A stretch of DNA of 64,000 nucleotides from an uncultured Candidatus Saccharibacteria bacterium (GCA_964582465.1 CAZOQX010000003.1:1115-65114), one strand, 5' to 3'. Shown: positions 1 through 16,334, numbered from the stretch's first letter. Made by a program: numbers and translations. The notes: a model not told the origin generated them from the letters alone.

Positions 1-1
1 C

Positions 2-1690: not shown

Positions 1691-2764
1691 CTACACAAGA
1701 GACCTTTCGGCCAAACCAATTGCGACCGGATATTCCAAGGCCATTTGGTTCAGCTGTTCCTGCATCACTGCGGGGAAGCTGACATGAGCCCAAGGATTCG
1801 CAATCGTGACAGGCAGGCCAGTTGCATTTGCTAGGTAGGTCGGTAAATCTGGTAGGGCCGCCGCACCTCCGGTCAAAATAATCTTTTCAATTTTGACAGT
1901 TTCATCTTTGGAAGCAAAAAACTTTTCCGATTTGTCCAGCTCACTGACCAATAGGTCGAGTGACGGCTTAATGGCCTTGTAAACTTGTCCTTCTAGCTTG
2001 TCTTGCATTAGACCGAACTTTTTTGTGAATTGCTCGGCTTGTTCGGCCGCCAAACCCAACGATTGGCTCACCGCCTTGATAAATGTCGACCCACCAACGT
2101 TAATCGAGCGCACCAGCTTTGGAGCCTGTTTGTGTACTACCGCGATATCGGTGTAAAGGCTTCCGACGTCTACGATCATCACGGCCGTATCTTCACGAGG
2201 CATCAAGCTACGAATCAGCGCGACGGCGTTCATCTCCAGCGCTTCAAGTTGTAACCCAGCCCGGTCAATGATATTCATGTATTTATTTACGCCGGTGTTG
2301 GGCGCAGACACCAAAAGAACTTCCATCTGATTGGGATCTTTCGCTGGCCCCACCACTTGCCAGTCCATTTTTACTTGATCAGCCGCAGTCGGAATGTATT
2401 GATCGGCCTGCAATTTAATGGCCTTGGCTAGCTCCTGATCATTCAGTTTGGGCGTCGTGATCACAGTAGCAAAAGCCAAAGCGGAAGGAATCCCTGCCAC
2501 CACGTTTTTAGTCGTGATTTTGGCGTCCTTCACTAGCTGTTTAATAACGTCCGCCACCTTCGATTGGTCCATCGGTGAGTCGCTAGTTGATAGTCCCGGT
2601 GGCAAATCAGCCGAGCCATAGGTCACAAGCGCCGGATTACCGCCACCAGCCCGAAGCTGCACCACCCTGACGCCAGTGGTTCCGATGTCTAGACCGAAAT
2701 AGCTATCTGAGCCTTGGAATAAGTTCATTAGCCAAATCATACCATAAGCAATATGGCTTGCCAA
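1691..2764 (-). CDS. pilM: Type IV pilus assembly protein PilM (actin-like ATPase fold)
   Basis: 357-aa ORF with YFGLDIGTTGVRVVQL and VDVGSLYTDI actin/FtsA-like phosphate motifs, adjacent to pilB. The start is uncertain: TTG at 2764, or the ATG at 2728 giving MNLFQGSD. Confidence 0.85.
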   Translation of the reverse strand: MASHIAYGMIWLMNLFQGSDSYFGLDIGTTGVRVVQLRAGGGNPALVTYGSADLPPGLSTSDSPMDQSKVADVIKQLVKDAKITTKNVVAGIPSALAFATVITTPKLNDQELAKAIKLQADQYIPTAADQVKMDWQVVGPAKDPNQMEVLLVSAPNTGVNKYMNIIDRAGLQLEALEMNAVALIRSLMPREDTAVMIVDVGSLYTDIAVVHKQAPKLVRSINVGGSTFIKAVSQSLGLAAEQAEQFTKKFGLMQDKLEGQVYKAIKPSLDLLVSELDKSEKFFASKDETVKIEKIILTGGAAALPDLPTYLANATGLPVTIANPWAHVSFPAVMQEQLNQMALEYPVAIGLAERSLV

Positions 2765-2771
2765 CTAGAAA

Positions 2772-3761
2772 CTAGCGTAGTTGCGGCAATAGTTTCAGGA
2801 TATGCGCTGTTTGGCTTTGTGCGGCGAGCCAGCGCGCAAGCGTGGGCGGCTTAAGTAAGATTATTCTGGCTAAAACAACGCCGTCGACTGTTTTTTCTCG
2901 CTTCAATATGTAGGTATTACCCTTAGCCGTGACCGCACCCGTAACTAACTGACCATCAGCCACGGCTGTGACTGCGTCGGCCACCGAAATCGGCAAGTTG
3001 CCGGCGCTAACCAACATGGCGTCTCCTGTTTTAGTCGCCGATACATCCTGCGAGTAGAGCTGCTGCAAATTAGTAAAATCCGCACCTTGTTTCAGCTTCT
3101 GGAGCAAACTCGCCGCCTGATCTTGGCTTTGCTTCACTAAAGTCGGATCTTGCTGCAGAGCCAGCGTCACCTTCTGATCTAAAAGCTGCTGCTTAGCACG
3201 GTAGCTAAACTCGAAACTATCTAGTCCGTATTGCTTCTTAATGTCACTAAGCGCCTTCTTTTTACCACCACCGTCCTTGTACAAACCATCCAGCGCTTTT
3301 GTACTCTCCTGATCAGTTAGCTCGATATGATGACTGCGCGCCCAGGCCGAGATTAAGGCCTGATTAGCGGACTCGGCCATAGCCTGTTCGTTTTGCTGTT
3401 TAGCGGTGAGCTTTTGGTTTACTTTATGTATTTCGAAATATTTTGCCTGGCTGCGCAGATTCAACAAGTAATCGTAGACGCTAACGGGGGTACGATTAAC
3501 ATACGCTGCCGGGATTGGTAATATGCGGGACATCCGATAAGCGAAGTCATTCTGCCAACCCAGTAAATATATGCCGACGGTTGCAGTCAGAATGGCAAAA
3601 CCTGCCGCCACCATTAGCGCTACAGCTGTTACAGCAGTCACTTTGCGCTGAGACTTGTTCGTATGAGCCAACACAAAGCGACTCACTACCTTCGCACTAT
3701 CCCCAATGAGCGACTTAAGCTGCTCACCTGCCTCTCGAAAAGTATCGCGAATCTCGCTCAT
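2772..3761 (-). CDS. Membrane-anchored SurA-N/parvulin-like (PpiC-type) peptidyl-prolyl isomerase-like protein
   Basis: One N-terminal TM helix (VTAVTAVALMVAAGFAILTATVGIYLL). It is followed by a SurA_N-like region (IPAAYVNRTPVSVYDYL) and a C-terminal parvulin-like segment (LQKLKQGADFTNLQQLYSQD...GNTYILKRE). The stop overlaps the next gene (ATGA at 3758-3761). Family call rests on motif recognition only. Confidence 0.55.
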   Translation of the reverse strand: MSEIRDTFREAGEQLKSLIGDSAKVVSRFVLAHTNKSQRKVTAVTAVALMVAAGFAILTATVGIYLLGWQNDFAYRMSRILPIPAAYVNRTPVSVYDYLLNLRSQAKYFEIHKVNQKLTAKQQNEQAMAESANQALISAWARSHHIELTDQESTKALDGLYKDGGGKKKALSDIKKQYGLDSFEFSYRAKQQLLDQKVTLALQQDPTLVKQSQDQAASLLQKLKQGADFTNLQQLYSQDVSATKTGDAMLVSAGNLPISVADAVTAVADGQLVTGAVTAKGNTYILKREKTVDGVVLARIILLKPPTLARWLAAQSQTAHILKLLPQLR

Positions 3762-4963
3762 TGGTTCACCACCGAATTATTTAAAGCACAGCTATTATAG
3801 ATGCCAGCGCCGTTTTGATCCGTAGACTGCGGTCCCACCTTGCAAACCGGAGAGGTACTGCTCCCCGAGAACAGGGCGTAATCAAATATACCAATCAGCT
3901 GCCCCGTCAGGGTTTTGGTCGCCACCACGCGTCGGCGGATGTCGCCCGACTGCCCTACTACGTCGATCACCAACTGCGACCCCGGAATTTGTAAATCTGG
4001 ACCGTTCGCGTAAATGCCATCCGATAGCAGCTTCACTTGGTAATCAACTGAATAGGCTTTGCCATTTACGTCCTGATCAGCCGTACTCACTAACCGAACG
4101 CGGAAAATATATCCACGGCTACGATTATTGGGCGTACCGCTGCTCGCGATTTGATACAAAACACAGCTATAATTCGCCACCGTCGTAGTGTCGAGCACGA
4201 CGGTATTTCCAGTCTGCGGCAACGTCGAAGGGCTCGGCGTCGTAGAGGTAAACTGGGTTTTTTCCACCTTCACATCCTGAGAAGTACTGCCGTTGAAAGA
4301 CACCGCTGTTAACTCGAAGGCGGCACTGGGGTCAACTGCCAATATTTTATCAACACCATTGACGCCGCTCGAGGAAGTGCGCGCCCAGCAGAAACGGAAA
4401 GCTGAATAATCCTGAAAGAGTTTGTACGCGCTGTTACAATCTGGCGGGTTCTGGCCGATTGTACCTGTAGCCGCCACAGTGGCGCTGCACTTACGTGTCA
4501 AATAACTGGTATCAAATTGTAGGCTTTGATCCTTCAACACCGAGCCAGCAAAATTAGCATTGGTGCTCGGATAAACCTTACGTTGGCGCCACGATACCAG
4601 CCCGGGCGGATCAGTCGCCGGTGGCTCCTTGGTAATGGTGTAGTTCGGCCAGTTTGAGCTGGTAGTATCGGGCAGCACGGCGTAGTCCCCTACCAGCGTG
4701 CCATTATCGTATTGATTCGGGAAAAGCGTCTGGAGCTGACTCGTCGGGTTCGCCACACCGTCCAAAGTTTTAAGAGCATCCTCAATGCCCGCCTCGGCCG
4801 CATAAAAGGCATCCTCCGAGCGATCAACTTGACTCGATTGATTCAGCTCATTAATCGTCAGCTTCGCCGCATAGCTAGTCGTTACCACCAATAAGATGGC
4901 AATAATTGACACCAGGTAAATGGCGATGGCGCCGCGCTCGTTAGTTTTAACTACTTGCTTCAT
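3758..4963 (-). CDS. PilX-N-like pilus-associated protein (pseudopilin-like N-terminus, large Thr/Ser/Asn-rich ectodomain)
   Basis: The N-terminus MKQVVKTNERGAIAIYLVSIIAILLVV resembles the PilX N-terminal ERG + hydrophobic helix and lacks Glu at +5. It is translationally coupled to the flanking minor-pilin gene. Confidence 0.6.
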   Translation of the reverse strand: MKQVVKTNERGAIAIYLVSIIAILLVVTTSYAAKLTINELNQSSQVDRSEDAFYAAEAGIEDALKTLDGVANPTSQLQTLFPNQYDNGTLVGDYAVLPDTTSSNWPNYTITKEPPATDPPGLVSWRQRKVYPSTNANFAGSVLKDQSLQFDTSYLTRKCSATVAATGTIGQNPPDCNSAYKLFQDYSAFRFCWARTSSSGVNGVDKILAVDPSAAFELTAVSFNGSTSQDVKVEKTQFTSTTPSPSTLPQTGNTVVLDTTTVANYSCVLYQIASSGTPNNRSRGYIFRVRLVSTADQDVNGKAYSVDYQVKLLSDGIYANGPDLQIPGSQLVIDVVGQSGDIRRRVVATKTLTGQLIGIFDYALFSGSSTSPVCKVGPQSTDQNGAGIYNSCALNNSVVNQ

Positions 4964-5472
4964 TATTTGCCCCTCAAGGTTGCAACTGTCGACAAGCTAT
5001 AGGCGTAGGCGTAGGGATCACTTGAGCTAACGCTCCCAGGTTGCTTCAGCCAAACTGCCATATCAACCTGAAGCGCCTCTTTGTCACCCGCTGGGGCTAG
5101 GTTTTGATAGCGCACCGCCTGAATAAATACTCCGTCGGTCACTGACACACCGTTTCTGAGGATGGCATTATTTGCAAAAGTATAATTCACGTCCGTCGCG
5201 GCTTGACCATTCAAGTTTTGGTTGTATTGCAAGGTTAGCGCAGTGGGACTGTTCACGGCGGCAGCCTTGGCGTTTCTAATGTCTCGCGCAATGCCCTCTA
5301 GTACATAGCGGCCGTTTTGCTGTACCGCTCGCTGCGTGGCACCCTTTTGCTGCAGCTTAGAGATCGAGGTGAAGGTCAGGCTGGCCGTAATCATAGCGGA
5401 TGATAAAAGTGCCATGCCAATCACCACTTCAACCAGAGTAATGCCATCTTCGCGCCTCACGACTGCGTCCAA
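4963..5472 (-). CDS. Minor pilin (prepilin-type N-terminal cleavage/methylation domain)
   Basis: N-terminus MDAVVRREDG|ITLVEVVIGMALL gives the G-x-T-L-x-E prepilin signature with Glu+5. 169 aa. Confidence 0.8.
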   Translation of the reverse strand: MDAVVRREDGITLVEVVIGMALLSSAMITASLTFTSISKLQQKGATQRAVQQNGRYVLEGIARDIRNAKAAAVNSPTALTLQYNQNLNGQAATDVNYTFANNAILRNGVSVTDGVFIQAVRYQNLAPAGDKEALQVDMAVWLKQPGSVSSSDPYAYAYSLSTVATLRGK

Positions 5473-6011
5473 TCGGTTAAAACGGTCCGCTCAATTACCT
5501 GCCTGGTACCGTTACTCTCCGTCCAGTTCACCTGCACCTGCACGTTTTTAGTATGAGAATCACCGTTGGCATCGCAGATTGTGAGCATACGGGAATAACT
5601 TGAATAAATCTGGCCAAAGTTGACACTATTACCATTAATGTCCAAGCTAGTGCCATCGAGTGCACCGGAACTGTAGGCGGTCGGACTAGCCACGGTCGCC
5701 TTACTCCAGCCACCTGGTCCGGCCACGCTCGGACGCATTATCCACTGGTGAGCTTGATCATTGGCGCAGCCGGTGATGCCATCCAAAAATGTGGCTGTAT
5801 CGCGTAGCTCACTATCACGGTAGGCTCGAAGCGCTTCCATCTCTCGATCAGCCAGTGCCACGGCCTGACTGCGCCGCCCCGCTTCTCCACTGGTTTTGGA
5901 TGATACACTCGCAAGCGCCGCGGCTGATGTGATCGACATCGCCATTAACGCCAGCGCTACCACTAGCTCGACCAAGGTTTGTCCAGATTGATTAGTCTTC
6001 AATGCCGCCAC
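5457..6011 (-). CDS. Minor pilin (prepilin-type N-terminal domain, PilV-like)
   Basis: N-terminus MAALKTNQSG|QTLVELVVALALMAM. 184 aa. Overlaps the downstream minor pilin by 16 nt. Confidence 0.8.
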   Translation of the reverse strand: MAALKTNQSGQTLVELVVALALMAMSITSAAALASVSSKTSGEAGRRSQAVALADREMEALRAYRDSELRDTATFLDGITGCANDQAHQWIMRPSVAGPGGWSKATVASPTAYSSGALDGTSLDINGNSVNFGQIYSSYSRMLTICDANGDSHTKNVQVQVNWTESNGTRQVIERTVLTDWTQS

Positions 6012-6017
6012 GAATTA

Positions 6018-6671
6018 TTACTTTACTGATACGTCAATCTTACCATTAGCGGGATAAAAAATCACTGTGCCGGTAAGTGCGACGTAATCAGCCGTTAGTG
6101 TAAATGTGACGTTTTGAGCGCCCGTATAGGGTTTGCCGGTAGAGGTTGTGACGGCCGCACACGGCGTACCGGAATCATCACAGCTAGTAAAACTCTTGCC
6201 GTCCGGGGCCAGAAATGCCAGCGATATGCTACTTGGCGCCGAGTTGCCGGCATTGTTTACGGCGATAGCCGAGATCTTGAGCCCCTCGGCGGTCAAGCTG
6301 GTCGAAGCGGCGAAAACTGGATCACTAATACCCGTCTGCTGAGTGTTATCGGTAGCAACCGACGTGTTTGTAAAATCACTGCCGTTTAATAGCATCGAAT
6401 CATACTTGTTCCCGGCCGAATTGTTATAAAAATTTAGGGCCGTCCCCCGCCAATAGCAGGGCGAGGTGGCACAGGTGCCAACTTGGCCAGTGTACGAATG
6501 CACCTGGGCCTGGCGAATGTCGTTCGCGAAGGCCTTGACCTCATCACTAAAACGCTCAGTTTTGATACTTGTCCCAGCTCCCCGGATTAAAACTAACGTC
6601 AACAATCCTATGATAGCCAGAGCCACCGTAGTTTCGATCAAAGTGTAGCCTTGTTTCCTAGGTAGTATCAT
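6018..6671 (-). CDS. Minor pilin (prepilin-type N-terminal domain, FimT/GspH-like)
   Basis: N-terminus MILPRKQG|YTLIETTVALAIIGLL. 217 aa. Confidence 0.8.
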   Translation of the reverse strand: MILPRKQGYTLIETTVALAIIGLLTLVLIRGAGTSIKTERFSDEVKAFANDIRQAQVHSYTGQVGTCATSPCYWRGTALNFYNNSAGNKYDSMLLNGSDFTNTSVATDNTQQTGISDPVFAASTSLTAEGLKISAIAVNNAGNSAPSSISLAFLAPDGKSFTSCDDSGTPCAAVTTSTGKPYTGAQNVTFTLTADYVALTGTVIFYPANGKIDVSVK

Positions 6672-6748: not shown

Positions 6749-7180
6749 CTATCTCACCGGGAATAAACCGGCGCCTTCGGTACAAACCGAAAGTTCGAAG
6801 TCACGATTATTGGCAGATTGAGCATAGAGTACTTCATATCTACTGGCATCAGTCGTAGCCGCACAGGCACCCGTCAAGTTTCCTGACGCAACATAAGTAC
6901 CAGCGGTAAAAGTATACTTGCCACCCAGCTTTGCGTCTAAGGTCGTCACGGCCGTTTTAGCAGCCGCATTGCTCGCAGGATAACTCGCGCCGTTATTAGC
7001 CGCATACTGATCAAGCAAGCCACCCATGCGGCCAGCCTCAGTCTTACGCGTAGTGTCACGTTGGGACTTCTGGGCACTGGCAATGGCGTTAAAGACCACC
7101 AGTATGATCAGGGCAGCGATGGCTAGCACGATCACTACTTCGATTAATGTAAACCCTTTAGATTTTTTCAATTCTCTCAC
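6749..7180 (-). CDS. pilA: Type IV major pilin-like protein, paralog 1
   Basis: N-terminus (V)RELKKSKG|FTLIEVVIVLAIAALIILVV with a short leader, Gly-1, Phe+1 and Glu+5. The small size (143 aa) and C-terminal Cys pair (C...C) are typical of T4a pilins. GTG start as listed. A TTG two codons later, preceded by GGTGAGAG, is an alternative. Confidence 0.85.
   Translation of the reverse strand: MRELKKSKGFTLIEVVIVLAIAALIILVVFNAIASAQKSQRDTTRKTEAGRMGGLLDQYAANNGASYPASNAAAKTAVTTLDAKLGGKYTFTAGTYVASGNLTGACAATTDASRYEVLYAQSANNRDFELSVCTEGAGLFPVR
7026..7161. repeat. Direct repeat copy A (pilin N-terminal coding segment)
   Basis: 136 bp matches 7556-7691 at an offset of 530 bp. I counted only 4 mismatches by eye. 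Confidence 0.85.
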
Positions 7181-7224
7181 CCACTTGATGCTTATGTTTA
7201 CCTATTTATACCACTTCTCCCGTC

Positions 7225-7251
7225 AAAAACAAAACCGGGAGCACGGCCCGG
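7225..7251 (-). terminator. Rho-independent terminator after pilin paralog 2
   Basis: Minus strand reads CCGGG-ccgtgct-CCCGG followed by TTTTGTTTTT, about 20 nt after the stop at 7272. Confidence 0.6.
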
Positions 7252-7271
7252 CTTAGTTTTTGACTTTCGGA

Positions 7272-7712
7272 TTATTTAACTTGGACTAGTCCGCCACCTT
7301 CTGTACAAACACTCAACTCGTAGTCGCGGTTCGTTGCTCCATTTGTGACATATAACACCTCATATATCGCAGCCGTTGTTGGGCTAGTAGCACAGGCACC
7401 GGTTAAGGCCCCATTGGCGACGTAGGTGCCTGCTGTAAAGGTGTACTTAGCACCTAGTTTAGAGTCAAGACCGGTTACAGCCGTCTTGGCTAAGGCAGTG
7501 GTAGATGGATATACACCAGAAGCATTAGACGCGGATTGTTCTAGTAGACTCACAATGCGGCCAGCCTCAGTCTTACGCGTAGTGTCACGTTGGGACTTCT
7601 GGGCACTGGCAATGGCGTTAAAGACCACTAGCAGGATCAGGGCAGCGATGGCTAACACGATCACTACTTCGATTAATGTAAACCCTTTAGCCTTATTTAG
7701 TTTCCGTAACAT
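7272..7712 (-). CDS. pilA: Type IV major pilin-like protein, paralog 2
   Basis: The listed ORF (7272-7784) has a 24-aa implausible extension. The ATG at 7712 gives MLRKLNKAKG|FTLIEVVIVLAIAALILLVV and is preceded by AAAGGTGAG. N-terminal 50 aa and the C-terminal motif (YEVLY...NRD-ELSVCTEG-GL) are shared with paralog 1. Confidence 0.85.
   Translation of the reverse strand: MLRKLNKAKGFTLIEVVIVLAIAALILLVVFNAIASAQKSQRDTTRKTEAGRIVSLLEQSASNASGVYPSTTALAKTAVTGLDSKLGAKYTFTAGTYVANGALTGACATSPTTAAIYEVLYVTNGATNRDYELSVCTEGGGLVQVK
7556..7691. repeat. Direct repeat copy B (pilin N-terminal coding segment)
   Basis: Partner of 7026-7161. Confidence 0.85.
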
Positions 7713-7790
7713 AATATTTGTGCTCACCTTTCTATTACTTATAGTGCTTACGTTTAATTTAAAGTCTTTCAGCTCAGTTGTCAACCTCCC

Positions 7791-9017
7791 CTACCTAGTT
7801 GGCCCACTGCTGACGCCCGACACTAAGCCGTAAATCGGCAGAAGCACGGCGCCGATCAGGAAGGCCACCATCACGCCCAAAACTACCATGGTAGCAGGCT
7901 CAATCAGGGTGGAGATATTTTTGACGGCCTGATCGACCTCATCTTCATAATAAGAAGCTACCTTCTCCAGACTATCGCCGAGCGTACCTGTTTGTTCACC
8001 GACCGCGAGCATTTGGCCAACCAGCGGCAAAAACATCGGGTGGTCCGTAATTAATTCCGATAGCGATGTGCCGCTTTTGACACGATTAGTGATATCTAAA
8101 ATAGCCCGCTCGAAATTAACATTATTGATGGATTGGGCCACAATAGTGAGCGCCTGCAAAATAGGCACGCCAGTTGAGATCAGTGAACCCAGCGTCCGCG
8201 CGAACCGCGCCATGTAAACTTTTTCCATCAATTGACCAAATAACGGCACCTTCGTCTTCAAGCTATCCAGCTGGCTGCGGCCAGGCGCAGATTTAATATA
8301 CATCCGTAGGCCATAGCCTGCCCCGATCAGCACTAACACGGTAATGTACCAATAGTGGGTGGTGAAATTGGAGAGAGCGAGCATTATTCGCGTAAAAACT
8401 GGCAAGGGCTTTTTGAGATCTTCATACATCTTGCCCACCTGCGGTAAGACCAAAGTTAGCATCAAGGTTGACACACCCAAAAGCACAGCCAGCACCACAG
8501 CAGGATAGGTTAAAGCGCCTCTGATTTTTGACCTAATCGCCTGGTTTTTCTCCTCCTGGTCGGCCAGCTTGAGCAAAACTTCGTCCAGATTACCGCTCAC
8601 CTCCCCCGCCTCGACCATGCTGATATAAATCGTGCTAAATATGTCGGCATGCTGAGCAAGCGACTGCGATAAACTCACGCCCCCCTCTAGACTGCTCGAC
8701 AGGCTTCGAATTATCTCCTTAAGCTTCGGGTTGGTCATCTGTTGCTCTAGCATACGCAGAGCTTTGGCAATTGGCAGGCCGGCCTTTACCATGGTGGCCA
8801 GCTGGCGGGTAAAGATGACCTTCTCTTTCGTGCTAACACGGTGCAAGATTTTATCGAGGAAAGAAGAATCTAGGCCCGGTTTTTTGGTGCCAATTTCCAG
8901 AGGAAACAACTGTTTTGCAACCAAGAGTTTGGTGGCTTCTTTTTCGCTCGCCGCCTCAACTTCGGCTTTGACCAGTTGCCCGGTCGCGTCTTTAGCTACG
9001 TAGTAATACTGCTGCAT
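7791..9017 (-). CDS. pilC: Type IV pilus platform protein PilC (GspF family)
   Basis: 408 aa with two T2SS-F repeats (FTRQLATMVKAGLPI... and FARTLGSLISTGVPI...) and three TM segments. Confidence 0.92.
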   Translation of the reverse strand: MQQYYYVAKDATGQLVKAEVEAASEKEATKLLVAKQLFPLEIGTKKPGLDSSFLDKILHRVSTKEKVIFTRQLATMVKAGLPIAKALRMLEQQMTNPKLKEIIRSLSSSLEGGVSLSQSLAQHADIFSTIYISMVEAGEVSGNLDEVLLKLADQEEKNQAIRSKIRGALTYPAVVLAVLLGVSTLMLTLVLPQVGKMYEDLKKPLPVFTRIMLALSNFTTHYWYITVLVLIGAGYGLRMYIKSAPGRSQLDSLKTKVPLFGQLMEKVYMARFARTLGSLISTGVPILQALTIVAQSINNVNFERAILDITNRVKSGTSLSELITDHPMFLPLVGQMLAVGEQTGTLGDSLEKVASYYEDEVDQAVKNISTLIEPATMVVLGVMVAFLIGAVLLPIYGLVSGVSSGPTR

Positions 9018-9026
9018 CGAAGTCTC

Positions 9027-9305
9027 CTACTGAAAGGGATCACTCTTACCTAGATCGCCTGATTTCGGCGAAACATCGGGGTAATCCGTGTCCTTTGACT
9101 GGAGTTGCTGAAGAGCATTTTGATCAAAAGAGGTGTTGATCCTAGCGGGGCCGGCAGCCGGCAAGTTGCCAGATTTTTGGGACTTTTTGTGGTGCGGGAA
9201 AAGCATCCAGCCTAGCACACCGACGATTAAGACTAAAATAACGATTTCTTTTACGAGCTTGCTTTGAGCCCGATTCTGAGGCATGGCAACTTTGGGCATT
9301 TTCAT
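9027..9305 (-). CDS. Small bitopic membrane protein, possibly PilP-like
   Basis: 92 aa with one TM (IVILVLIVGVLGWMLF) and a C-terminal SDPF, reminiscent of the DPF motif of PilP-type proteins. ATGA overlap with the upstream pilO-like gene. Function is inferred from position only. Confidence 0.4.
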   Translation of the reverse strand: MKMPKVAMPQNRAQSKLVKEIVILVLIVGVLGWMLFPHHKKSQKSGNLPAAGPARINTSFDQNALQQLQSKDTDYPDVSPKSGDLGKSDPFQ

Positions 9306-9877
9306 TGCGTCCCTCCTGTAGTGCTAGCGGGCGGCGCCGCCTGATAGTAGGCTGTAATGTTTACGGCTGCCTGCACATTAGTACTCCCGGCACCATTAGG
9401 TGCCAAGTTGACGGATTGAACGTCAATATAGCGAGCAGCGTTTTCGAGTTTTTGCAATAAGCTTTGGACGCCGGCGTAAGATGCACTGATGGCTAGATTT
9501 ACGGGATAAGTAGCGACCCCTGTTGCTGCGCTGGCGGCGACACCACCCGGCGAAAACGTAGTCATTACCGCACTGCTTTTGGACGTCAAATCACTTACCA
9601 TCGCCACCAGCCTCTCCTCTTCGTTAGCTGTAGGTAGTAGGTGCAGAATTTGATCATGCTGATCTTTGACGGCGGCGTAATTTTGGCGCAGGGTCTGAGT
9701 ATCTTGATCCAGCTGCTTTAAGGCAGTGATTTTATTGTTGTAATCTGCGATCTGCTGCCCATCCTTCCCGGCTGTGTTTAAAATTGGCTTAATGATAAAG
9801 AAGCCAACTACGGCCGCAGTTGCAAGCCCAATCAATAAATACAGCCCGACTAGGTTCAGTAATTTGTGATCTTTCAT
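9302..9877 (-). CDS. pilO: PilO-like pilus alignment protein
   Basis: 191 aa with an N-terminal TM, a coiled-coil (KITALKQLDQDTQTLRQNYAAVKDQ) and a C-terminal ferredoxin-like region. Sits directly after pilN with overlapping stop/start. Confidence 0.65.
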   Translation of the reverse strand: MKDHKLLNLVGLYLLIGLATAAVVGFFIIKPILNTAGKDGQQIADYNNKITALKQLDQDTQTLRQNYAAVKDQHDQILHLLPTANEEERLVAMVSDLTSKSSAVMTTFSPGGVAASAATGVATYPVNLAISASYAGVQSLLQKLENAARYIDVQSVNLAPNGAGSTNVQAAVNITAYYQAAPPASTTGGTQ

Positions 9878-10476
9878 TTCGCCAAACCTCCGGTGGGATA
9901 AACATAGGTTGCGGAGAGCGAAAATGCCACGCGGGTTCCTTGGACGCTGGCTCCACTAAATGCTACGGAGTTAAAGTAGATTTGTCCTCCCGCATTCGCC
10001 ACACTGGTCGTACTTGGGTCGGGTGTTGGACTAGACTGCTTAAGCGCCGCGATGGCTGTGCCCACTTCATTGTAGGAACCAGCCGTGCCGGCAATGACAA
10101 CTTTCTCGCCATCGACATTAAGCGATTGCAGTGTGACCCCCTTCGGCAAAAGATCAGTCACCCGCTTAAAGATGGCCGAAAACTTATGTTGATTGCTAAA
10201 CAGCCCGTTCAATTCTTGTAGGCTAGCCTGGACAGCCAGGGCTTCTTTACGAAATGCGACGTTATCCGGTGAATTCACCTGAGCGTTGAGGGTGGTATAG
10301 CTATTTTTGGCCGAAGTCAGCCGCACTTTCTGGACGCCCAAGTACACGCCAGCAAGAACTGCCAAGCCCGCCACTAAAATTAGCCAGCCAACAATACTTG
10401 CCGTGGCTATCTTCTTAAACTTCTCCTCACGCTGACGGTTAAGGACTAAATCTGGTAGTAGGTTTACCTTGATCAT
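9874..10476 (-). CDS. pilN: PilN-like pilus alignment protein
   Basis: N-terminus MIKVNLLPDLVLNRQREEKFKK followed by a TM helix, which is the classic PilN INLLP signature. Confidence 0.75.
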   Translation of the reverse strand: MIKVNLLPDLVLNRQREEKFKKIATASIVGWLILVAGLAVLAGVYLGVQKVRLTSAKNSYTTLNAQVNSPDNVAFRKEALAVQASLQELNGLFSNQHKFSAIFKRVTDLLPKGVTLQSLNVDGEKVVIAGTAGSYNEVGTAIAALKQSSPTPDPSTTSVANAGGQIYFNSVAFSGASVQGTRVAFSLSATYVYPTGGLAK

Positions 10477-10520: not shown

Positions 10521-13500
10521 TTAATTACTTGGTACCGCCTCATTCCACACCGCCGGAGCACTATTAAGAGTACTGAACCATGGCGGCGGGTTGCTCACCA
10601 CCGTGCCATCGTAGACGAAGTTCTCGGATGGGTTGATGTCAGGATCTAGTTGTGTGCCAGGCTGGCGCTGTAAGTTGAATGATGAGGCAATTATCAAACC
10701 GTTGAGTGTCAGCGGTTGGTCGACATTGACGCGATCATTGTTCCCCACTAAGCTGGTGCCCGAGCTAAATGCACCATTCGCAAAGTAGTTGCCGGCTAGA
10801 TTACTCACGCAATCGTCGGAATTGAAACACTTAACGATGATATTGCCGGTCACAATGAATCCAACTGACGTCTGCTGGCTGCGATCAGTACCGCTATAGC
10901 CGTTATAAGAGACATCACCGTTTACAATTAGATCGCCATTTACAACTATTGTGCCCGCTCCGCCTGCAAAACTGAGCGCGGTATGGGTAGCAGGATCGCC
11001 TAAGTTCAAATTACCATTAGCATAATAGGTTCTCCCGTTGGCGAGCGTAAAGGTGTCGTCCATCGTATAGTAATTTTGCCCGCTGACCTTAGTGAGGTTC
11101 GTGGCCTTCCCCACAATATTATTATTGTAATTGGTCTGCCCCCAGATGGCGTAAATCGGATTATTAGCATTGTCATACGTTCCCGAATTGCCGGTGTTGA
11201 GAGCGTAGGGGCTGAAGGCTTTTCCTTGACTAGGATGACCCGATACGCCTGGGCTGGTGAAGTCAAAGTGATTAATTAGTCCTTTGGTGTACAAGAACGC
11301 CGATTGCGCCAGGGAGTGCGCGAAGTAGCTATCGATCTTCCCGCCAGCGTAAACGTCGGAATTTTGGAAAGATATGGTCGGATTATAAATGGTAGCAACC
11401 CCGCGGTCGGGCTTGGCAGCACTATCCGATTCTATACCGTAAAGCACATTATCGGGCTTGGAGGCGCTCACGTCGCGCGATCCGAGGTCTCGGGTGTGTC
11501 CCTTAAAGGTACTCTCGTAGCGAGCGCGCTGGACGTTACTTGACCAACCCCAGTCGACATTGACTAAACCGTCCTTGGTGCCATCGTATGTTACGTCGCA
11601 TTCCCCATCGAAGTTAGCGGGACAATTGGCCGTATCTTCCTGAAGTAATTGGCCAGCGCCGGTGTAGTACTTGGTGTTGGCGGCACTCGCGGTCAGGTTA
11701 AAGAAACCGCCGGGCCAATAGGTTGCCGTCACATTTTGAGTGCCAGACTTGGTGTCATCAAAGCCCGTGATTACCGGCTCCACCACCTGCGTGTCATAAA
11801 TCATGCGATTCGTATAAAGCGGATCGGCGCGATCAAATGCCCAGCTTACTCCAGCGCCGTGAGCAAGCGGTGTCGAATCCCCCGAGTTATCCATCGTAGT
11901 AACGGTGGTCGAGTCCTGCCAATAAGTGGGGAGGTCGGCCGTTGCTGGGTCATTATCACCATCGGCCCAAGTCGGGTTGGTCTTGTTAAATCCCCCACCA
12001 AAGTAACTATCTTGGCCTAACACTTGACCTTGAATCGTGGCATTGGGATTCAGCCACCCCCACTTGGTCTCTCTTCTGCCCAAGTAGTAGGTAAAGTTGC
12101 TGACGATAAATTTATTGCTAATCTTTAGCGTCACGGTGGTACCAGCAGTCCCGTCGGCAGTTCCAGGGCTATAGGTGAAGCCGGCCGCGCCGCTGGCATT
12201 GGTTGCACCCCCCAACTTCACGCCGATCGGCGTGTCGTGAGCAGCAGCGTTTTTGGTTGGATACCAGTGGCCCTTGTCGTCTAGTTGCGACCAATTCACG
12301 TACTCATCCCACTTAAGCTGCGCATTATCGACGTGTGTAATGCCCGTAGTGTAGGTCAACGGTTCTTGGTTATTGGCCTTATATTTGAGTGTGCCGTTGT
12401 CCTGACTGTCCTGCAAAAGCGACGTCACAGTCGTAGTGCCCCACGATTTCAGTGGCAAATCACTTACACCCAAGCCGCCCTTCAAAATATTGTCTGGATC
12501 AAGCGTAAAGTTAGTCGGTACATCAGTATTGTCCGAATCAGCCTGATTGGTGAAGTTAGCATCGTTAATTGAGGCACTATACGTACTCGGGAAAAGTTGT
12601 GGATTTCGAACGTTATCCCAAGTGTTGGGCTTTGGCGAGTTATCGGCCTTAACTGGTCCAGCACTATTATCGGGCAATGACTGCCGCGGATCCGCTCCCT
12701 TATTGGTATCGCGCTGCAATAGATTTTTGTCGATGCCGCCCTGCCACTGAACGCCGTGGTCGCCCACCACTGAGACATCATCTGAGTTGTTAGCCGGCGA
12801 TTTAATTCCTTGGGCGTTAATATGGAGGTTAGAGATCTCGACAGCGTTGATGTGATTACTGCCGCCGCAGTCCCATACTTGTTTGCCGTCAGTATAAAAG
12901 TAGCTGCCGTCTTGGCAGGCGATGCCGCCGTGGCGGGGGTCAAAAGCATTGCTATCGCTGGTCGAGAAGTTCACGTCGCGAATGGGTTGCCACTTATTGC
13001 CACCAGGAGTGGACGAGCCGGACGTCACGGTGCCGTCGTTCTTCGGTACGTAAGCGAGCGGGATGCGCTGCAAGCAACCGGTGGCCGCAAACGAAGCCGG
13101 GCAACCAATCTCCGCCTTGTTATTAAAGACACTCATGCTGTTTAGGTCCGTATCGAGATTTTCGCTGGTGGTATTGGTATCCCCAAAAGCCGATCCCCAA
13201 GTACCAGCCAGCCAGAAGTTAGTCGAATGATCGTTGCCTTGGTATGTTCCTTGATCGGTTTTGCCGCGATTGCCCGCATCCGGCCACATGTAGGCCTGCA
13301 GGTTAAAGAGCGGATATTTAAAGTTATCGCGCACGAACTGTAAAACGGGGTGAATGAAGTTGGCTAAGTAGACTTTCGCTGGCGTGTTTAGAGATTTAAT
13401 GGTGATAGCGCAGGTGTCGCCGAATAGGTCATATACACCGGCCACGAGACTAGGCGTACCCATCTGGAAGGTTAGGCGATAGACGCCGGGGGTCGCTGGT

Positions 13501-14993
13501 GTTACATAGCTCGCATTCGAGAAAGTAGTAGTCTGATTGGGGCCGATAGGTGGACTATTAATCGACTGAGTCGTAGGTCCAGTTACAGGAGTGTCATCAG
13601 TACGAACTAGCTTATACGAGCTGGTCCAAGCCACATCGCCGGTATTCTTTAATGACTGGGTAATTTTTACAGTCGACCCCGGCGCGACAGGGTTCGGAAT
13701 AGAGCTTTGGATGCTTTGGCAGTTTGAGTTCTGGGAGCAAGTATCGTTGTAGGTTTCACTATCGTACGGGATCCAAATTTGCGGATCGTTATTGTAGCTA
13801 ATGTTGTGCCATACCCACATAAACTGCATACTATACGCCGCGGCAAAGTCTAGAGTTTTAGTTTCACCGTTGCCGCCAATAAATTCAGGGTATTTATCCG
13901 GATTCTGATCGGCAACTGCCGTCTTTACATCATAGCCCCGCCGATGAGCACTTCCCCCATTGAAAATATCTGGAGTTATCTTCCACGGCCCGGGACTAGT
14001 CCCGCCAACGTCGCGATAATATAAATCAAAGTAGATTTGTGGGTTAACCGGAGAAGAGTCGCTAGCCCCGTCCGCATCCTGCCACCTCAGCTCGTTATAA
14101 AGAATAGGATAAACCTCTTTTTGCGACAAGCAGGGGGTTGCAAACGGAATATAGAGGTCGTAGGTTCCACTCGTGTTGGTCGTATCAAGCGTGATAGGCT
14201 GATCACCTTTATCAAACCTCGCCCACAAGCCCACACGGTTCCCACCACAAGGGAAATTTTGATTTGCCCCCTGATTATTTACATCTTGTTGCATGCAACC
14301 ATCAGCTTGTGTCCCGGAGCTATAAGCTTGGATCCTGAAGTTCGCCCACCGGTCGTGACCAGGCTCAACGACCACACTGTCATCTGTGTTCATCGCCGAA
14401 ATATACCCAACTGCAAGTCGGTATACATAGTATCCGTTGCTCTTATTACTAGGCGATGATAAACATCCGCCATCGCCGTAGTTGTCAGAGTCGGTATCAA
14501 ACTTAATAGGGTCGCTCCACTGACCCGGGCTTGTAAAGAATACGGACCCTTGCTTGCCCTGAGAGATACATTTTTTGGCGTTATTATTATCGTCGAAGAT
14601 TTTGTAGGATTCGTCAGCGTTGGCGGGGGTAAAGAAAAATTTCATGCTTTTGAAATCTTGGTCAGAAGAACTTCCAGTACCTGTCCGAATTCTTATGTAG
14701 GTATTGTGGGGATCTTTGAAGTATAGCTTGATGTAAGATACGGGCGTATCGATAGCTCGACCTGTAGTGCCAGCATTGCATTGGTGGTTTGGATTGGTAA
14801 AGTAGCCTGAACATGCTTGGCTAACATCGACTTGAATATCGCCGTTCCCTCCATCGACTGTTTGATTCGGTAGAACATCATTTACTCTTACAAAGCTAAA
14901 GTCCGGGGCAGCCTGGGCTGGCTTAACCAAACTGAACAGGTTAACCGGCAGAAGCACCGCCAAAATAGTTAGCCACCTAATAAGCTTAGCCAT
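10521..14993 (-). CDS. Giant secreted protein (1490 aa), putative pilus-associated adhesin or surface protein
   Basis: Signal peptide MAKLIRWLTILAVLLPVNLFSLVKPAQA|AP. An Ig-like NBR1/CARDB-type segment lies around aa 425-535 (KITQSLKNTGDVAWTSSYKL...GVYRLTFQM). The body is Asn/Thr/Gly/Asp/Trp-rich. The C-terminus has beta-helix-like repeats (GTIVVNGDLIVNGDVSY, VGFIVTGNIIV, LTLNGLIIAS). Its stop is 44 bp upstream of pilN on the same strand. Confidence 0.8.
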   Translation of the reverse strand: MAKLIRWLTILAVLLPVNLFSLVKPAQAAPDFSFVRVNDVLPNQTVDGGNGDIQVDVSQACSGYFTNPNHQCNAGTTGRAIDTPVSYIKLYFKDPHNTYIRIRTGTGSSSDQDFKSMKFFFTPANADESYKIFDDNNNAKKCISQGKQGSVFFTSPGQWSDPIKFDTDSDNYGDGGCLSSPSNKSNGYYVYRLAVGYISAMNTDDSVVVEPGHDRWANFRIQAYSSGTQADGCMQQDVNNQGANQNFPCGGNRVGLWARFDKGDQPITLDTTNTSGTYDLYIPFATPCLSQKEVYPILYNELRWQDADGASDSSPVNPQIYFDLYYRDVGGTSPGPWKITPDIFNGGSAHRRGYDVKTAVADQNPDKYPEFIGGNGETKTLDFAAAYSMQFMWVWHNISYNNDPQIWIPYDSETYNDTCSQNSNCQSIQSSIPNPVAPGSTVKITQSLKNTGDVAWTSSYKLVRTDDTPVTGPTTQSINSPPIGPNQTTTFSNASYVTPATPGVYRLTFQMGTPSLVAGVYDLFGDTCAITIKSLNTPAKVYLANFIHPVLQFVRDNFKYPLFNLQAYMWPDAGNRGKTDQGTYQGNDHSTNFWLAGTWGSAFGDTNTTSENLDTDLNSMSVFNNKAEIGCPASFAATGCLQRIPLAYVPKNDGTVTSGSSTPGGNKWQPIRDVNFSTSDSNAFDPRHGGIACQDGSYFYTDGKQVWDCGGSNHINAVEISNLHINAQGIKSPANNSDDVSVVGDHGVQWQGGIDKNLLQRDTNKGADPRQSLPDNSAGPVKADNSPKPNTWDNVRNPQLFPSTYSASINDANFTNQADSDNTDVPTNFTLDPDNILKGGLGVSDLPLKSWGTTTVTSLLQDSQDNGTLKYKANNQEPLTYTTGITHVDNAQLKWDEYVNWSQLDDKGHWYPTKNAAAHDTPIGVKLGGATNASGAAGFTYSPGTADGTAGTTVTLKISNKFIVSNFTYYLGRRETKWGWLNPNATIQGQVLGQDSYFGGGFNKTNPTWADGDNDPATADLPTYWQDSTTVTTMDNSGDSTPLAHGAGVSWAFDRADPLYTNRMIYDTQVVEPVITGFDDTKSGTQNVTATYWPGGFFNLTASAANTKYYTGAGQLLQEDTANCPANFDGECDVTYDGTKDGLVNVDWGWSSNVQRARYESTFKGHTRDLGSRDVSASKPDNVLYGIESDSAAKPDRGVATIYNPTISFQNSDVYAGGKIDSYFAHSLAQSAFLYTKGLINHFDFTSPGVSGHPSQGKAFSPYALNTGNSGTYDNANNPIYAIWGQTNYNNNIVGKATNLTKVSGQNYYTMDDTFTLANGRTYYANGNLNLGDPATHTALSFAGGAGTIVVNGDLIVNGDVSYNGYSGTDRSQQTSVGFIVTGNIIVKCFNSDDCVSNLAGNYFANGAFSSGTSLVGNNDRVNVDQPLTLNGLIIASSFNLQRQPGTQLDPDINPSENFVYDGTVVSNPPPWFSTLNSAPAVWNEAVPSN

Positions 14994-15074
14994 TAGAGTT
15001 ATTGTATGAGCTTATCCACTACCAGTCAAACCCCTTAAGCTTATTGACATCATGACTGCTCCGGTAGACTATTA

Positions 15075-15755: not shown

Positions 15756-16334
15756 ATGTTGAAGTTTCGTTTTTCTATACTAACAGTCTACCTGGCCAGC
15801 ATAATTGCTGGCTTCTTAGCTTGGAGCTTCCCTGCCCAGGCTATTACGTATCACAAAGTCTCCACTCTCCAGGAACACTCAACTTTCTCTTATACAAATG
15901 ATGGGAAAACGATTAAAGAGAAGGTTCAGCATCCTGACTGGAGGGACGGCGGGCACATGTCATGTAGCAATACTTGCTGGCTCTCGGCTAAAGCAAGTTC
16001 AACCTTCCAAGACGCCTGGACTGGTCCAGGGTTTCACGTAGCGTCCAGCGGCGTAAACTCAACTAACAAGAATCAACGCGCGTGCTTTGTTATTCGGGTT
16101 GCTCCAGGTGCATCCTCAGCAATAGCAGGAATATCCGTCGATGGGACACCAGTAGGACAATCTACATCTGTTACAAAAGATTTCAAGTGTTATTGGCTGA
16201 ACTACACAGTCAAAGCAGGCCAGACCGGCCTCAGCTGGACCATCCATGTTCAGTCTGGGCAAGTTCAGATTGACCGTGTAGAACTGTGGCAGGGCGGTGC
16301 TAGTGGCAAGAGTGTTTTTGTAGAATTACAGTAA
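15756..16334 (+). CDS. Secreted beta-sandwich-like protein, tandem paralog 2
   Basis: 192 aa with signal peptide MLKFRFSILTVYLASIIAGFLAWSFPAQA|I. The C-terminal 124 aa are identical to paralog 1. Confidence 0.7.
   Translation: MLKFRFSILTVYLASIIAGFLAWSFPAQAITYHKVSTLQEHSTFSYTNDGKTIKEKVQHPDWRDGGHMSCSNTCWLSAKASSTFQDAWTGPGFHVASSGVNSTNKNQRACFVIRVAPGASSAIAGISVDGTPVGQSTSVTKDFKCYWLNYTVKAGQTGLSWTIHVQSGQVQIDRVELWQGGASGKSVFVELQ
15958..16325 (+). repeat. Perfect 368-bp direct repeat, copy B (3' part of paralog 2)
   Basis: Partner of 15334-15701. Confidence 0.9.

What the first reader, a model, noticed from the sequence alone, without database searches (positions are those of the whole stretch)
10521..14993. 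1490-aa secreted protein heading the type IV pilus operon: candidate novel pilus-linked adhesin
Seen: this is the largest gene in the window. It lies on the same strand as pilN and 44 bp upstream of it, and it has a cleavable signal peptide. I recognise no catalytic motifs.

It contains one Ig-like NBR1/CARDB-type module (around aa 425-535). There are long Asn/Thr/Gly/Trp-rich stretches. The C-terminal roughly 200 aa carry beta-helix-like repeats (GGAGTIVVNGDLIVNGDVSYNG, VGFIVTGNIIVKC, LTLNGLIIASSFNLQR), ending in SNPPPWF...VWNEAVPSN.

Known: T4P tip or associated adhesins (PilY1, PilC1/2, ComZ) are large and diverse.

Inference: in an organism without an outer membrane or secretin, this protein may be the host- or substrate-binding component presented by or working with the pilus. 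There is no LPXTG or S-layer-homology anchor, so how it stays on the cell is unclear.
Basis: partly seen in the sequence, partly recalled or inferred. Interest (0 to 1): 0.65.

Follow-up and report, generated by a model that had tools for sequence, protein, structure and literature searches.

The report
Conserved exoprotein heading CPR pilus operons
This 1490-residue secreted protein belongs to an unannotated family whose conserved C-terminal beta-solenoid module is encoded next to type IV pilus genes in nearly all of the roughly 70 Saccharibacteria and other candidate-phyla-radiation (CPR) loci I could examine, so it is a strong candidate for the cargo or adhesin that these tiny episymbiotic bacteria couple to their pili.

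Summary
ORF 10521-14993(-) encodes a 1490-aa protein with a Sec signal peptide. It lies 44 nt upstream of pilN and heads a pilus operon that runs to pilB at the window edge.

The protein is not an orphan. An exhaustive HMMER search found about 16 full-length relatives, and more than 100 proteins that share only the last ~190-290 residues, almost always at their extreme C-terminus.

- **Synteny:** All 4 homologous loci in Saccharibacteria genomes keep the order big gene-pilN-pilO-pilC-pilins.
- **Wider linkage:** Of 65 metagenome loci picked only by the C-terminal motif, 53 have pilM or pilN as the next gene. Four more have pilus genes within four genes, and three sit just after a pilX-like pilin gene.
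- **Variability:** N-terminal parts are hypervariable, giving proteins of 468 to over 4300 aa.

Best reading: a non-pilin exoprotein coupled to the pilus through the conserved C-terminal module, with the variable part as the binding end. Pilus linkage is shown. Adhesion and tip docking are inferred. Pfam and NCBIfam have no model for the family.

The parts
15001..15029 (-). Best sigma-70-like promoter match (TTGACT-17-TACAAT). The -10 hexamer ends 7 nt before the ATG and there is no Shine-Dalgarno sequence, so the mRNA is probably leaderless.
   Evidence: This is a consensus match only (10 of 12) and is not evidence of function.
10521..14993 (-). Gene for the 1490-aa exoprotein (mature form about 158 kDa, pI 4.7).
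14910..14993 (-). Sec-type signal peptide, aa 1-28, with an AQA|A cleavage site. There is no prepilin motif.
13374..14909 (-). Variable N-terminal region, aa 29-540. It averages 17.6% identity to the 15 full-length relatives, and only 63% of its residues can be aligned.
13413..13688 (-). NBR1-type Ig-like domain, aa 436-527.
   Evidence: PF16158, E=4.5e-7, above the gathering score. It is also found in relatives P0003 and P0015. 25 unrelated hits match only this region.
11397..13373 (-). Saccharibacteria-specific conserved core, aa 541-1199. It averages 34.8% identity and has many invariant W/Y/D/E/Q residues, for example WDEYVxWxQxDDKGHW. The fold is unknown.
10524..11396 (-). CPR-wide C-terminal module, aa 1200-1490. 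It consists of a GDIY...NATY-like element (about aa 1200-1245), a linker with a helix (aa 1279-1294), a triangular beta-solenoid (about aa 1314-1460) and a tail.
10524..10625 (-). Most conserved tail, aa 1457-1490. The family consensus is E-x-(I/F)-x-Y-D-G-R-x3-N-(P/T)-P-P-G-(F/L)...P-x-W-x-E. Here it reads ENFVYDGTVVSNPPPWF...AVWNEAVPSN. It is mostly non-regular in the model and is a candidate docking peptide.
9874..10476 (-). pilN.
   Evidence: PF05137.
9302..9877 (-). pilO.
   Evidence: PF04350.
9027..9305 (-). Small 92-aa membrane protein. A gene of about 80-160 aa (larger, about 290-420 aa, in some loci) holds this position in most related loci.
   Evidence: The positional equivalent SEML1_0107 is essential in S. 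epibionticum.
7791..9017 (-). pilC platform protein.
   Evidence: PF00482.
6749..7784 (-). Two tandem paralogous pilin genes (7272-7784 and 6749-7180).
4963..6671 (-). Three minor pilin genes (6018-6671, 5457-6011, 4963-5472).
   Evidence: N_methyl.
3758..4963 (-). PilX-like large minor pilin of 401 aa. It is the positional equivalent of the GspK-like SEML1_0116 and is the presumed tip pilin.
2772..3761 (-). SurA_N/PpiC-type peptidyl-prolyl isomerase encoded inside the operon.
1691..2764 (-). pilM.
   Evidence: PF11104, E=8e-54.
1..1684 (-). pilB extension ATPase, cut by the window start.
   Evidence: tblastn, 68% identity to L002 PilB over 558 aa.

Best explanation
The gene encodes a non-pilin exoprotein that is functionally coupled to the type IV pilus of a Saccharibacterium (CPR/Patescibacteria).

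**Proposed steps**
1. The protein is exported by Sec and its signal peptide is removed. This is predicted from the sequence and is not experimentally shown.
2. The conserved C-terminal ~290-aa module attaches it to the pilus system. The module is an ice-binding-protein/ComZ-type triangular beta-solenoid followed by an invariant proline-rich tail. The most likely attachment point is the minor-pilin priming/tip complex, made of the GspK-like PilX plus three minor pilins encoded downstream. This step is inferred.
3. Pilus extension then presents the rest of the protein beyond the cell envelope. That part is the lineage-specific core plus the hypervariable N-terminal ~510 aa with an Ig-like domain. 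There it binds a host-cell or substrate ligand, probably a glycan. This step is inferred.

**Analogies**
- In function it resembles PilY1/PilC: a Sec-exported non-pilin with a conserved C-terminal docking domain and a variable N-terminal adhesive part.
- In structure it looks like ComZ split into two genes. In ComZ the same kind of solenoid is inserted into a GspK-like tip pilin. Here the solenoid protein and the GspK-like pilin are separate polypeptides.
For: **Export**
- A Sec signal peptide is the only hydrophobic segment. There is no prepilin motif, LPXTG-like motif or C-terminal TM segment.
- All 15 full-length relatives also begin with a hydrophobic N-terminal segment consistent with a signal peptide, and none has a prepilin motif.

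**Pilus linkage (the strongest evidence)**
- In 4 of 4 genome loci the homologue heads the same operon.
- In 65 metagenome loci selected only through the motif YDGR[VLI][LV][AV]N[PT]P, the next same-strand gene is pilM in 52 and pilN in 1, with a median gap of 64 nt.
- Four more loci have pilus genes within four genes. In L009, L024 and L025 the gene sits directly after a pilX-like minor pilin and a ~205-aa gene.
- Pfam confirms PilM_2, T2SSE and T2SSF in two sampled loci.
- In the window the gap to pilN is 44 nt, with no predicted terminator or promoter in it. The best promoter match lies just upstream of the big gene.

**Module architecture**
- 125 of the top 150 hits share the C-terminal domain, and 122 of 127 domain copies end within 15 residues of the C-terminus.
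- Full proteins range from 468 to 3830 aa when complete, and exceed 4300 aa when cut by a contig end.
- Within the Saccharibacteria family, identity rises from 17.6% (N region) to 34.8% (core) to 40.7% (C module).

**Fold**
- The model has pLDDT 84.2.
- ComZ is a tip-located competence pilin whose solenoid resembles ice-binding proteins (PMC6561018).
- 10 of 39 family members give weak DUF7305 matches, best E=4.5e-5.

**Binding-type parts**
- An NBR1 Ig-like domain in this protein.
- Weak GH2_N sugar-binding and H-lectin hits in relative P0013.

**Precedent**
Against: - There is no direct evidence of binding, of tip location or of interaction with minor pilins. No multimer modelling could be run.
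- The usual gene position is next to the alignment-complex genes pilM/pilN/pilO, not next to the minor pilins. That fits a machine component equally well.
- The N-terminal parts of other family members contain almost no recognisable adhesion domains.
- The cultured S. epibionticum has an essential pilus locus without this gene, so the protein is not required for piliation in every Saccharibacterium.
- The window protein departs from the family at two nearly invariant tail positions: T for R at 1464 and W for G at 1472.
- The similarity to ComZ is structural only. No sequence match to any PDB chain was found.
Confidence: 0.5

Rival explanations
1. It is a structural or gating component of the pilus machine. 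The conserved C-terminal module would be built into the envelope-spanning part of the machine, for example contacting the PilN/PilO ectodomains. It would guide or plug the pilus on its way through peptidoglycan and S-layer in a cell that has no secretin. The variable part would be decoration.
For: - The gene is adjacent to pilM or pilN in 53 of 65 loci. In Saccharibacteria, where pilM has moved to the operon end, it stays with pilN.
- It is conserved across distant CPR lineages.
- CPR bacteria lack PilQ (PMC6744442).
- PilY1 itself has been proposed to plug the secretin (PMC11525922).
Against: - A nine-fold size range and an unalignable N-terminal region are unusual for a fixed structural part.
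- There is no membrane anchor after the signal peptide and no cell-wall-binding domain.
- S. epibionticum has an essential, functional pilus locus without the gene at that position.
- In some loci the gene follows pilX instead.
Confidence: 0.2
The conserved C-terminal module or tail would be the recognition signal for the minor-pilin tip. After release, the variable part would act on the host, as a binding protein or as an undetected glycan- or wall-active enzyme.
For: - It is a Sec-exported soluble protein encoded in the pilus operon.
- It has a highly conserved, largely unstructured terminal motif.
- The core has many invariant aromatic and acidic residues, as in carbohydrate-active sites.
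Against: - No enzyme family was detected in Pfam or NCBIfam for this protein or 20 relatives.
- Lyases and hydrolases score clearly lower than ice-binding proteins and ComZ.
- A monoderm cell has less need of a piston-type secretion step.
- This rival overlaps with the best explanation, because both require docking to the pilus tip.
Confidence: 0.15
3. It is a general surface or S-layer-type protein, or a DNA receptor, that merely lies next to the pilus genes. The conserved C-terminal domain would anchor it to the wall, or bind DNA as ComZ does.
For: - The acidic, N/T/G/S-rich and Cys-poor composition resembles surface-layer proteins.
- ComZ binds DNA (PMC6561018).
- ComEA is missing from many CPR genomes (PMC6744442).
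Against: - Adjacency to pilus genes in about 60 of 65 independent loci is far beyond chance neighbourhood.
- There is no SLH or other wall-binding family.
- The C-terminal domain is acidic: median pI 4.96, and 90 of 100 copies have a net charge of zero or below. That argues against a conserved DNA-binding role.
- The short gap without a terminator is unlike a strongly expressed monocistronic S-layer gene.
Confidence: 0.08

Closest known systems
PilY1 / PilC (non-pilin type IV pilus tip adhesins of Pseudomonas, Neisseria and Myxococcus)
   Same: Large Sec-exported non-pilin encoded with pilus genes. The C-terminal domain is conserved and the N-terminal part is variable. It is presumed to be loaded on the minor-pilin priming complex (PMC11525922).
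   Different: There is no sequence or fold relation. PilY1 ends in a beta-propeller, while this protein ends in a beta-solenoid. PilY1 is encoded among the minor pilins, whereas this gene usually precedes pilM or pilN.
ComZ of Thermus thermophilus (PDB 6qvi), a tip-located competence pilin
   Different: ComZ is itself a pilin, with the solenoid inserted in a GspK-like pilin domain. This protein has a Sec signal peptide and no pilin domain. No sequence similarity is detectable. The solenoid here is acidic and is not expected to bind DNA.
Ice-binding proteins, DUF3494 / IBP-1 fold (5uyt, 3wp9, 7bwx, 6bg8)
   Different: There is no Pfam DUF3494 match. The context is pilus operons of CPR bacteria, and an ice-binding function is not expected.
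Tapirins of Caldicellulosiruptor (4wa0, 6n2b, 6n2c)
   Same: Secreted binding proteins encoded next to a type IV pilus locus in a monoderm bacterium, with a C-terminal beta-helix (10.1101/359786).
PilX1/PilX2 of Nanosynbacter lyticus TM7x and SEML1_0116 of Southlakia epibionticum
   Same: Candidate pilus-tip adhesins of Saccharibacteria with lectin-like accessory domains (PMC11623550; PMC10633639).
   Different: Those are pilin-like proteins, equivalent to the 401-aa gene at 3758-4963. They are not the protein studied here. The oral species' main pilus locus starts with pilM right after ychF and has no big upstream gene.

Membership tests
PilY1/PilC tip adhesins (PF05567) | C-terminal PilY1/PilC beta-propeller domain | tested here: not met
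   No Pfam hit at E<=1. The C-terminus models as a beta-solenoid.
PilY1/PilC tip adhesins (PF05567) | Non-pilin with a Sec signal peptide, encoded with pilus genes | tested here: met
PilY1/PilC tip adhesins (PF05567) | Physical association with minor pilins at the pilus tip | not testable with these tools
   This needs multimer modelling, pull-downs or immunolabelling.
ComZ-like / PilX_N-DUF7305 solenoid pilins | N-terminal pilin (GspK-like) domain with a class III signal | tested here: not met
   The signal peptide is Sec-type with an AQA|A site. No prepilin motif was found in this protein or in any of 150 relatives.
ComZ-like / PilX_N-DUF7305 solenoid pilins | Triangular ice-binding-protein-like beta-solenoid | tested here: met
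ComZ-like / PilX_N-DUF7305 solenoid pilins | Pfam DUF7305 (PF23981) match above the gathering score | tested here: not met
   The window protein gives no hit. 10 of 39 relatives give sub-threshold or weak hits, best E=4.5e-5.
Ice-binding proteins (DUF3494) | Sequence membership in the family | tested here: not met
   No Pfam hit. Only pAdhesive_15 appears, at E=0.023 in 2 of 39 relatives.
NBR1-type Ig-like domain (PF16158) | Match above the Pfam gathering score | tested here: met
   aa 436-527, 30.8 bits against 28.
Sortase (LPXTG), SLH or PGF-CTERM surface anchoring | Sorting motif followed by a C-terminal TM segment, or SLH repeats | tested here: not met
   No LPXTG-like motif, no C-terminal hydrophobic segment and no SLH hit. 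The PPPGF-like tail motif is not followed by a TM helix.
Proposed new family: CPR pilus-operon exoproteins with the C-terminal solenoid module | About 190-290-aa module at the extreme C-terminus with the tail motif YDGRxxxN(P/T)PPG(F/L) | tested here: met
   The domain is matched at E=4e-75 to the family HMM. The tail is present but has T for R and W for G.
Proposed new family: CPR pilus-operon exoproteins with the C-terminal solenoid module | Encoded directly upstream of pilM or pilN on the same strand | tested here: met
   44 nt upstream of pilN. The family shows this in 4 of 4 and 53 of 65 loci.

The most novel reading that the evidence does not exclude
The C-terminal solenoid-plus-tail module is a universal pilus-coupling domain of CPR/Patescibacteria. 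It would let hypervariable and sometimes giant (over 4000 aa) exoproteins ride on the pilus tip. These proteins, rather than the pilins, would then be the main determinants of which host cell an episymbiont recognises. On this view ComZ-type tip pilins and this family are two solutions built from the same solenoid: fused to the tip pilin in one case, and on a separate polypeptide in the other.
Probability: 0.3. Interest if true: 0.85.

Novelty: new variant of a known kind. Interest (0 to 1): 0.66.

Why it matters
CPR/Patescibacteria make up a large share of bacterial diversity and, as far as is known, live attached to other cells. Type IV pili are their best-supported attachment device, and they are essential in the one species studied by Tn-seq (PMC10633639).

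How these bacteria recognise a host is an open question. Work so far has focused on pilins (PMC11623550). This finding points instead to a conserved, unannotated, non-pilin gene at the head of most CPR pilus operons examined. Its conserved C-terminal module suits docking, and its fast-evolving remainder suits specificity.

That gives a concrete candidate for host-range determination. It also gives a sequence handle, the C-terminal motif, for finding such proteins in any CPR genome. The resulting hypotheses can be tested by multimer modelling, pilus proteomics and deletion.

If the rival reading is right and this is a machine part, the protein would be a missing component of a secretin-less pilus machine, which would also be of interest.

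Tried and rejected
**Searches that returned little or nothing**
- Word-indexed homology searches. The full-length query and the family profile found only the query itself. The C-domain profile found 12 'hypothetical proteins'.
- Exact-sequence contig look-ups found nothing for this protein or for PilC. The cluster look-up gave no name.
- A genome scan with the single protein found nothing. It worked only with the family alignment.
A 12-sequence alignment worked.
- PDB sequence searches with the protein and with the C-domain profile gave nothing significant. Only short hits to phage T4 gp5 (tail-associated lysozyme) appeared, at E>1.
- The AlphaFold database library was not available.

**Regions still unresolved**

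**Ideas considered and rejected**
- An enzyme: no family hit in this protein or 20 relatives.
- A pilin: no class III signal.
- Internal repeats or paralogues in the window: none found.
- A conserved DNA receptor: the module is acidic.
- A PGF-CTERM or LPXTG sorting signal: there is no terminal TM segment.

**Literature.** No paper mentions DUF7305. In the passages retrieved by term searches, the CPR and Saccharibacteria pilus papers I checked do not mention this gene. This was a limited search and is not proof of absence.

Full report
**1. The observation**

The ORF at 10521-14993 on the minus strand starts with ATG and encodes 1490 aa. It is the largest ORF in the window; the next largest is DNA polymerase I at 904 aa.

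The N-terminus, MAKLIRWLTILAVLLPVNLFSLVKPAQA|AP, is a typical Sec signal peptide and the only hydrophobic stretch. The protein is rich in G, T, N, S and D, has 2.1% Trp, and carries 18 Cys, mostly in near pairs. The mature protein is about 158 kDa with pI 4.7.

Pfam finds a single family, the NBR1-type Ig-like domain at aa 436-527 (E=4.5e-7, above the gathering score). NCBIfam finds nothing meaningful. There is no LPXTG-like motif and there are no internal repeats or paralogues in the window.

Downstream on the same strand lie these genes:
- pilN, 44 nt away
- pilO
- a 92-aa ORF
- pilC
- two pilin paralogues
- three minor pilins
- a 401-aa PilX-like protein
- a SurA/PpiC-type isomerase
- pilM
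- pilB, cut by the window start

The 44-nt gap holds no predicted terminator or promoter. The best promoter-like site in the region (TTGACT-17-TACAAT) ends 7 nt before the ATG of the big gene.

**2. The organism**

The rest of the window carries housekeeping genes: recA, ftsK, RNase J, PNPase, polA, dnaG, rpoD, groEL and leuS. The closest loci found are metagenome-assembled genomes of Saccharibacteria/Saccharimonadia. They also share the upstream genes efp, tlyA/ftsJ and ychF. CPR bacteria are reported to lack the secretin PilQ (PMC6744442).

**3. The protein is not an orphan**

Word-indexed searches found only the protein itself. An exhaustive HMMER scan of 1.84 billion representatives with aa 291-1490 gave 177 hits at E<=1e-3. 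They fall into three groups.

- **Full-length relatives.** About 16 proteins of 1219-1756 aa at 35-41% identity. All begin with a hydrophobic N-terminal segment consistent with a signal peptide.
- **C-terminal-domain sharers.** More than 100 proteins of about 150-1500 aa share only the C-terminal ~190 aa. A local HMM finds the domain in 125 of the 150 listed hits, and 122 of 127 domain copies end within 15 residues of the C-terminus. None has a prepilin motif.
- **Ig-only hits.** 25 hits lack the C-terminal domain; nearly all of them match only the Ig-like region.

Within the full-length family, identity to the window protein is 17.6% in aa 29-540 (with only 63% of residues alignable), 34.8% in aa 541-1199 and 40.7% in aa 1200-1490.

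The part shared with other CPR lineages starts near aa 1200, with a GDIY...NATY...G.I..F-like element. It ends in a very conserved tail: E-x-I-I-Y-D-G-R-x3-N-(P/T)-P-P-G-(F/L)...L-P-x-W-x-E.

The sources call these proteins 'hypothetical', for example in Candidatus Buchananbacteria and Portnoybacteria. Pfam and NCBIfam have no model for the module.

**4. Linkage to pilus genes**

*Genome collection.* A scan with the family alignment returned four loci, all Saccharibacteria. In all four the homologue is followed by pilN-pilO-(small ORF)-pilC-pilin-minor pilins-pilX-like-(isomerase)-pilM-pilB.

*Metagenome collection.* A scan used only the C-terminal motif YDGR[VLI][LV][AV]N[PT]P, so it was blind to pilus genes. 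It returned 78 loci. I called ORFs and classified neighbours with phmmer against the window's own Pil proteins. Among the 65 loci with at least 600 nt downstream of the C-domain gene:
- pilM is the next same-strand gene in 52 loci.
- pilN is the next same-strand gene in 1 locus.
- A pilus gene lies within four genes in 4 further loci.
- No pilus gene was found downstream in 8 loci.

The median intergenic gap is 64 nt. The typical order is C-domain gene-pilM-pilN-pilO-small ORF-pilB-(pilT)-pilC-pilin.

Of the eight loci without a downstream pilus gene, three (L009, L024 and L025) have the gene directly after a pilX-like minor pilin and a ~205-aa gene. In L009 these close a cluster that also holds a pilin, pilO and candidate minor-pilin genes. 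Several of the others are short contigs.

Pfam confirmed PilM_2, T2SSE and T2SSF in two sampled loci. The C-domain proteins range from 468 to 3830 aa when complete, and exceed 4300 aa when cut by a contig end. The family is therefore a conserved, variable-length first gene of CPR pilus operons.

The reverse is not universal. In the cultured oral species Southlakia epibionticum, the essential T4P1 locus starts with pilM immediately after ychF, with no such gene (PMC10633639 supplement). In the passages my term search retrieved, the TM7x pilus study does not mention one (PMC11623550).

**5. Structure**

AlphaFold2 on aa 540-1490 with 19 sequences gave a moderate model (pLDDT 61). The C-terminal part is well defined. 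The core is poorly defined and shows long beta-strands.

The C-terminal 190 aa with a 39-sequence alignment gave pLDDT 84.2 and pTM 0.82. The model is a beta-solenoid followed by a mostly irregular tail.

|---|---|---|

ComZ is a competence pilin of Thermus thermophilus. Its large solenoid was itself described as ice-binding-protein-like, and the protein is argued to sit at the pilus tip with PilA2 (PMC6561018).

At the sequence level, 10 of 39 family members give weak DUF7305 matches (best E=4.5e-5) and 2 give an 'ice-binding-like adhesive domain' match. The window protein gives none. No PDB sequence is matched. The resemblance to ComZ is therefore one of fold class, not demonstrated homology.

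**6. How it most likely works**

*Established from sequence, context and modelling*
- It has a Sec-type signal peptide with a predicted cleavage site, is not a pilin and has no recognisable wall anchor.
- It carries a conserved C-terminal solenoid module found across CPR.
- It is tightly linked to pilus genes.
- The remainder of the protein is hypervariable.

*Inferred*
- The conserved module couples the protein to the pilus system.
- The most likely partner is the minor-pilin priming/tip complex. Three arguments support this. The only pilus protein with this kind of solenoid is a tip pilin. Non-pilin tip proteins with a conserved C-terminal docking domain and a variable N-terminal part are known, namely PilY1 (PMC11525922). 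An alternative gene arrangement places the gene directly behind pilX.
- The variable part would then be the ligand-binding end. Support for this is limited to one Ig-like domain here and weak lectin-type hits in one relative.

I put this reading at about 0.5.

*Rivals*
- **A part of the machine.** It would contact PilN/PilO or guide the pilus through the wall in a secretin-less cell. The usual position next to pilM/pilN favours this. The nine-fold size range and the absence from an essential pilus locus in S. epibionticum argue against it. Confidence is about 0.2.
- **A cargo secreted by the pilus machine, possibly an undetected glycan-active enzyme.** It overlaps with the main reading in requiring tip recognition. 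Confidence is about 0.15.
- **A surface-layer-type protein or DNA receptor that is merely adjacent.** The synteny statistics argue against the former. The acidity of the module argues against the latter: median pI 4.96, and 90 of 100 copies are not positively charged. Confidence is about 0.08.

**7. Comparison with known systems and novelty**

- It works like PilY1/PilC but fails that family's defining feature, the C-terminal beta-propeller.
- It shares a fold class with the ComZ solenoid but lacks the pilin domain.
- It shares genomic context and general design with tapirins (10.1101/359786), but the beta-helix similarity is only generic.
- It is distinct from the PilX1/PilX2 candidates studied in TM7x, which correspond to the 401-aa gene downstream.

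I found no Pfam or NCBIfam model and no mention in the CPR pilus papers I could search. That is a limited search. I class the finding as a new variant of a known kind: a non-pilin pilus-associated exoprotein, defined by a new conserved module.

**8. Limits**

- The synteny counts rest on my own ORF calls and on phmmer classification with the window's Pil proteins. Pfam spot checks agreed.
- I did not measure how many CPR pilus operons lack the gene.
- The central core and the N-terminal region have no reliable structure.
- No interaction modelling could be run.
- Co-transcription with pilN is inferred only from spacing and consensus scans.

Noticed in passing
window 15001-15029 (-) and ATG at 14993: The best promoter-like site ends 7 nt before the start codon and there is no Shine-Dalgarno sequence. 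The operon's first gene may therefore be translated from a leaderless mRNA.
   Followed up: partly
window 15075-15707 (+) and 15756-16334 (+): Two tandem paralogous genes (210 and 192 aa) are transcribed divergently from the big gene. They have different N-termini, nearly identical C-terminal ~130 aa and no Pfam family. A 300-nt direct repeat (15294-15593 / 15918-16217) is 95% identical, which points to a recent duplication or gene conversion.
   Followed up: partly
window 9027-9305 (-); the same position in L001-L064: A small single-pass protein gene sits between pilO and pilB/pilC in most CPR pilus loci examined (about 80-160 aa, larger in some loci). Its positional equivalent SEML1_0107 is essential in S. 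epibionticum (PMC10633639 supplement). It may be an unnamed core pilus component.
   Followed up: no
window 2772-3761 (-): A SurA_N/PpiC-type peptidyl-prolyl isomerase is encoded inside the pilus operon, between the pilX-like gene and pilM. A gene also occupies this position in L001, L002 and L004. It may be a dedicated folding factor for pilins or for the big exoprotein.
   Followed up: no
window 10524-10625 (-), aa 1464 and 1472: The window protein has T instead of the nearly invariant R, and W instead of the nearly invariant G, in the tail motif (YDGT...NPPPWF against the consensus YDGR...NPPPGF). The meaning is unknown.
   Followed up: no
window 7272-7784 (-) and 6749-7180 (-): There are two tandem major-pilin paralogues with very similar sequences. 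The upstream copy's ORF has a ~27-aa N-terminal extension if the first TTG is used, so its true start is probably further downstream.
   Followed up: no
L058, L062, L063, L064, L068, L081 (metagenome loci): Some pilus operons are headed by giant C-domain proteins of 3100 to over 4300 aa, several of them cut by the contig end. Only L068 and L081 were scanned against Pfam: L068 carries a dockerin-type calcium-binding motif and a BNR-like region, and L081 a DUF7948, and both are otherwise without Pfam matches.
   Followed up: partly
P0021, P0026, P0031, P0045 and many other ~520-aa family members (for example L015:8960-10540): The short CPR versions carry repeated GW(A/I)WS(E/S)N(I/L/F)GW(I/V/F)S-type motifs and Cys-rich stretches between the signal peptide and the C-terminal module. 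No Pfam family matches them.
   Followed up: no
L009:7287-10507 and L024:95-3404: In an alternative arrangement the C-domain gene follows a pilX-like minor pilin and a ~205-aa membrane protein. In L009 these lie at the end of a cluster that also holds a pilin, pilO and candidate minor-pilin genes, instead of the C-domain gene preceding pilM.
   Followed up: partly
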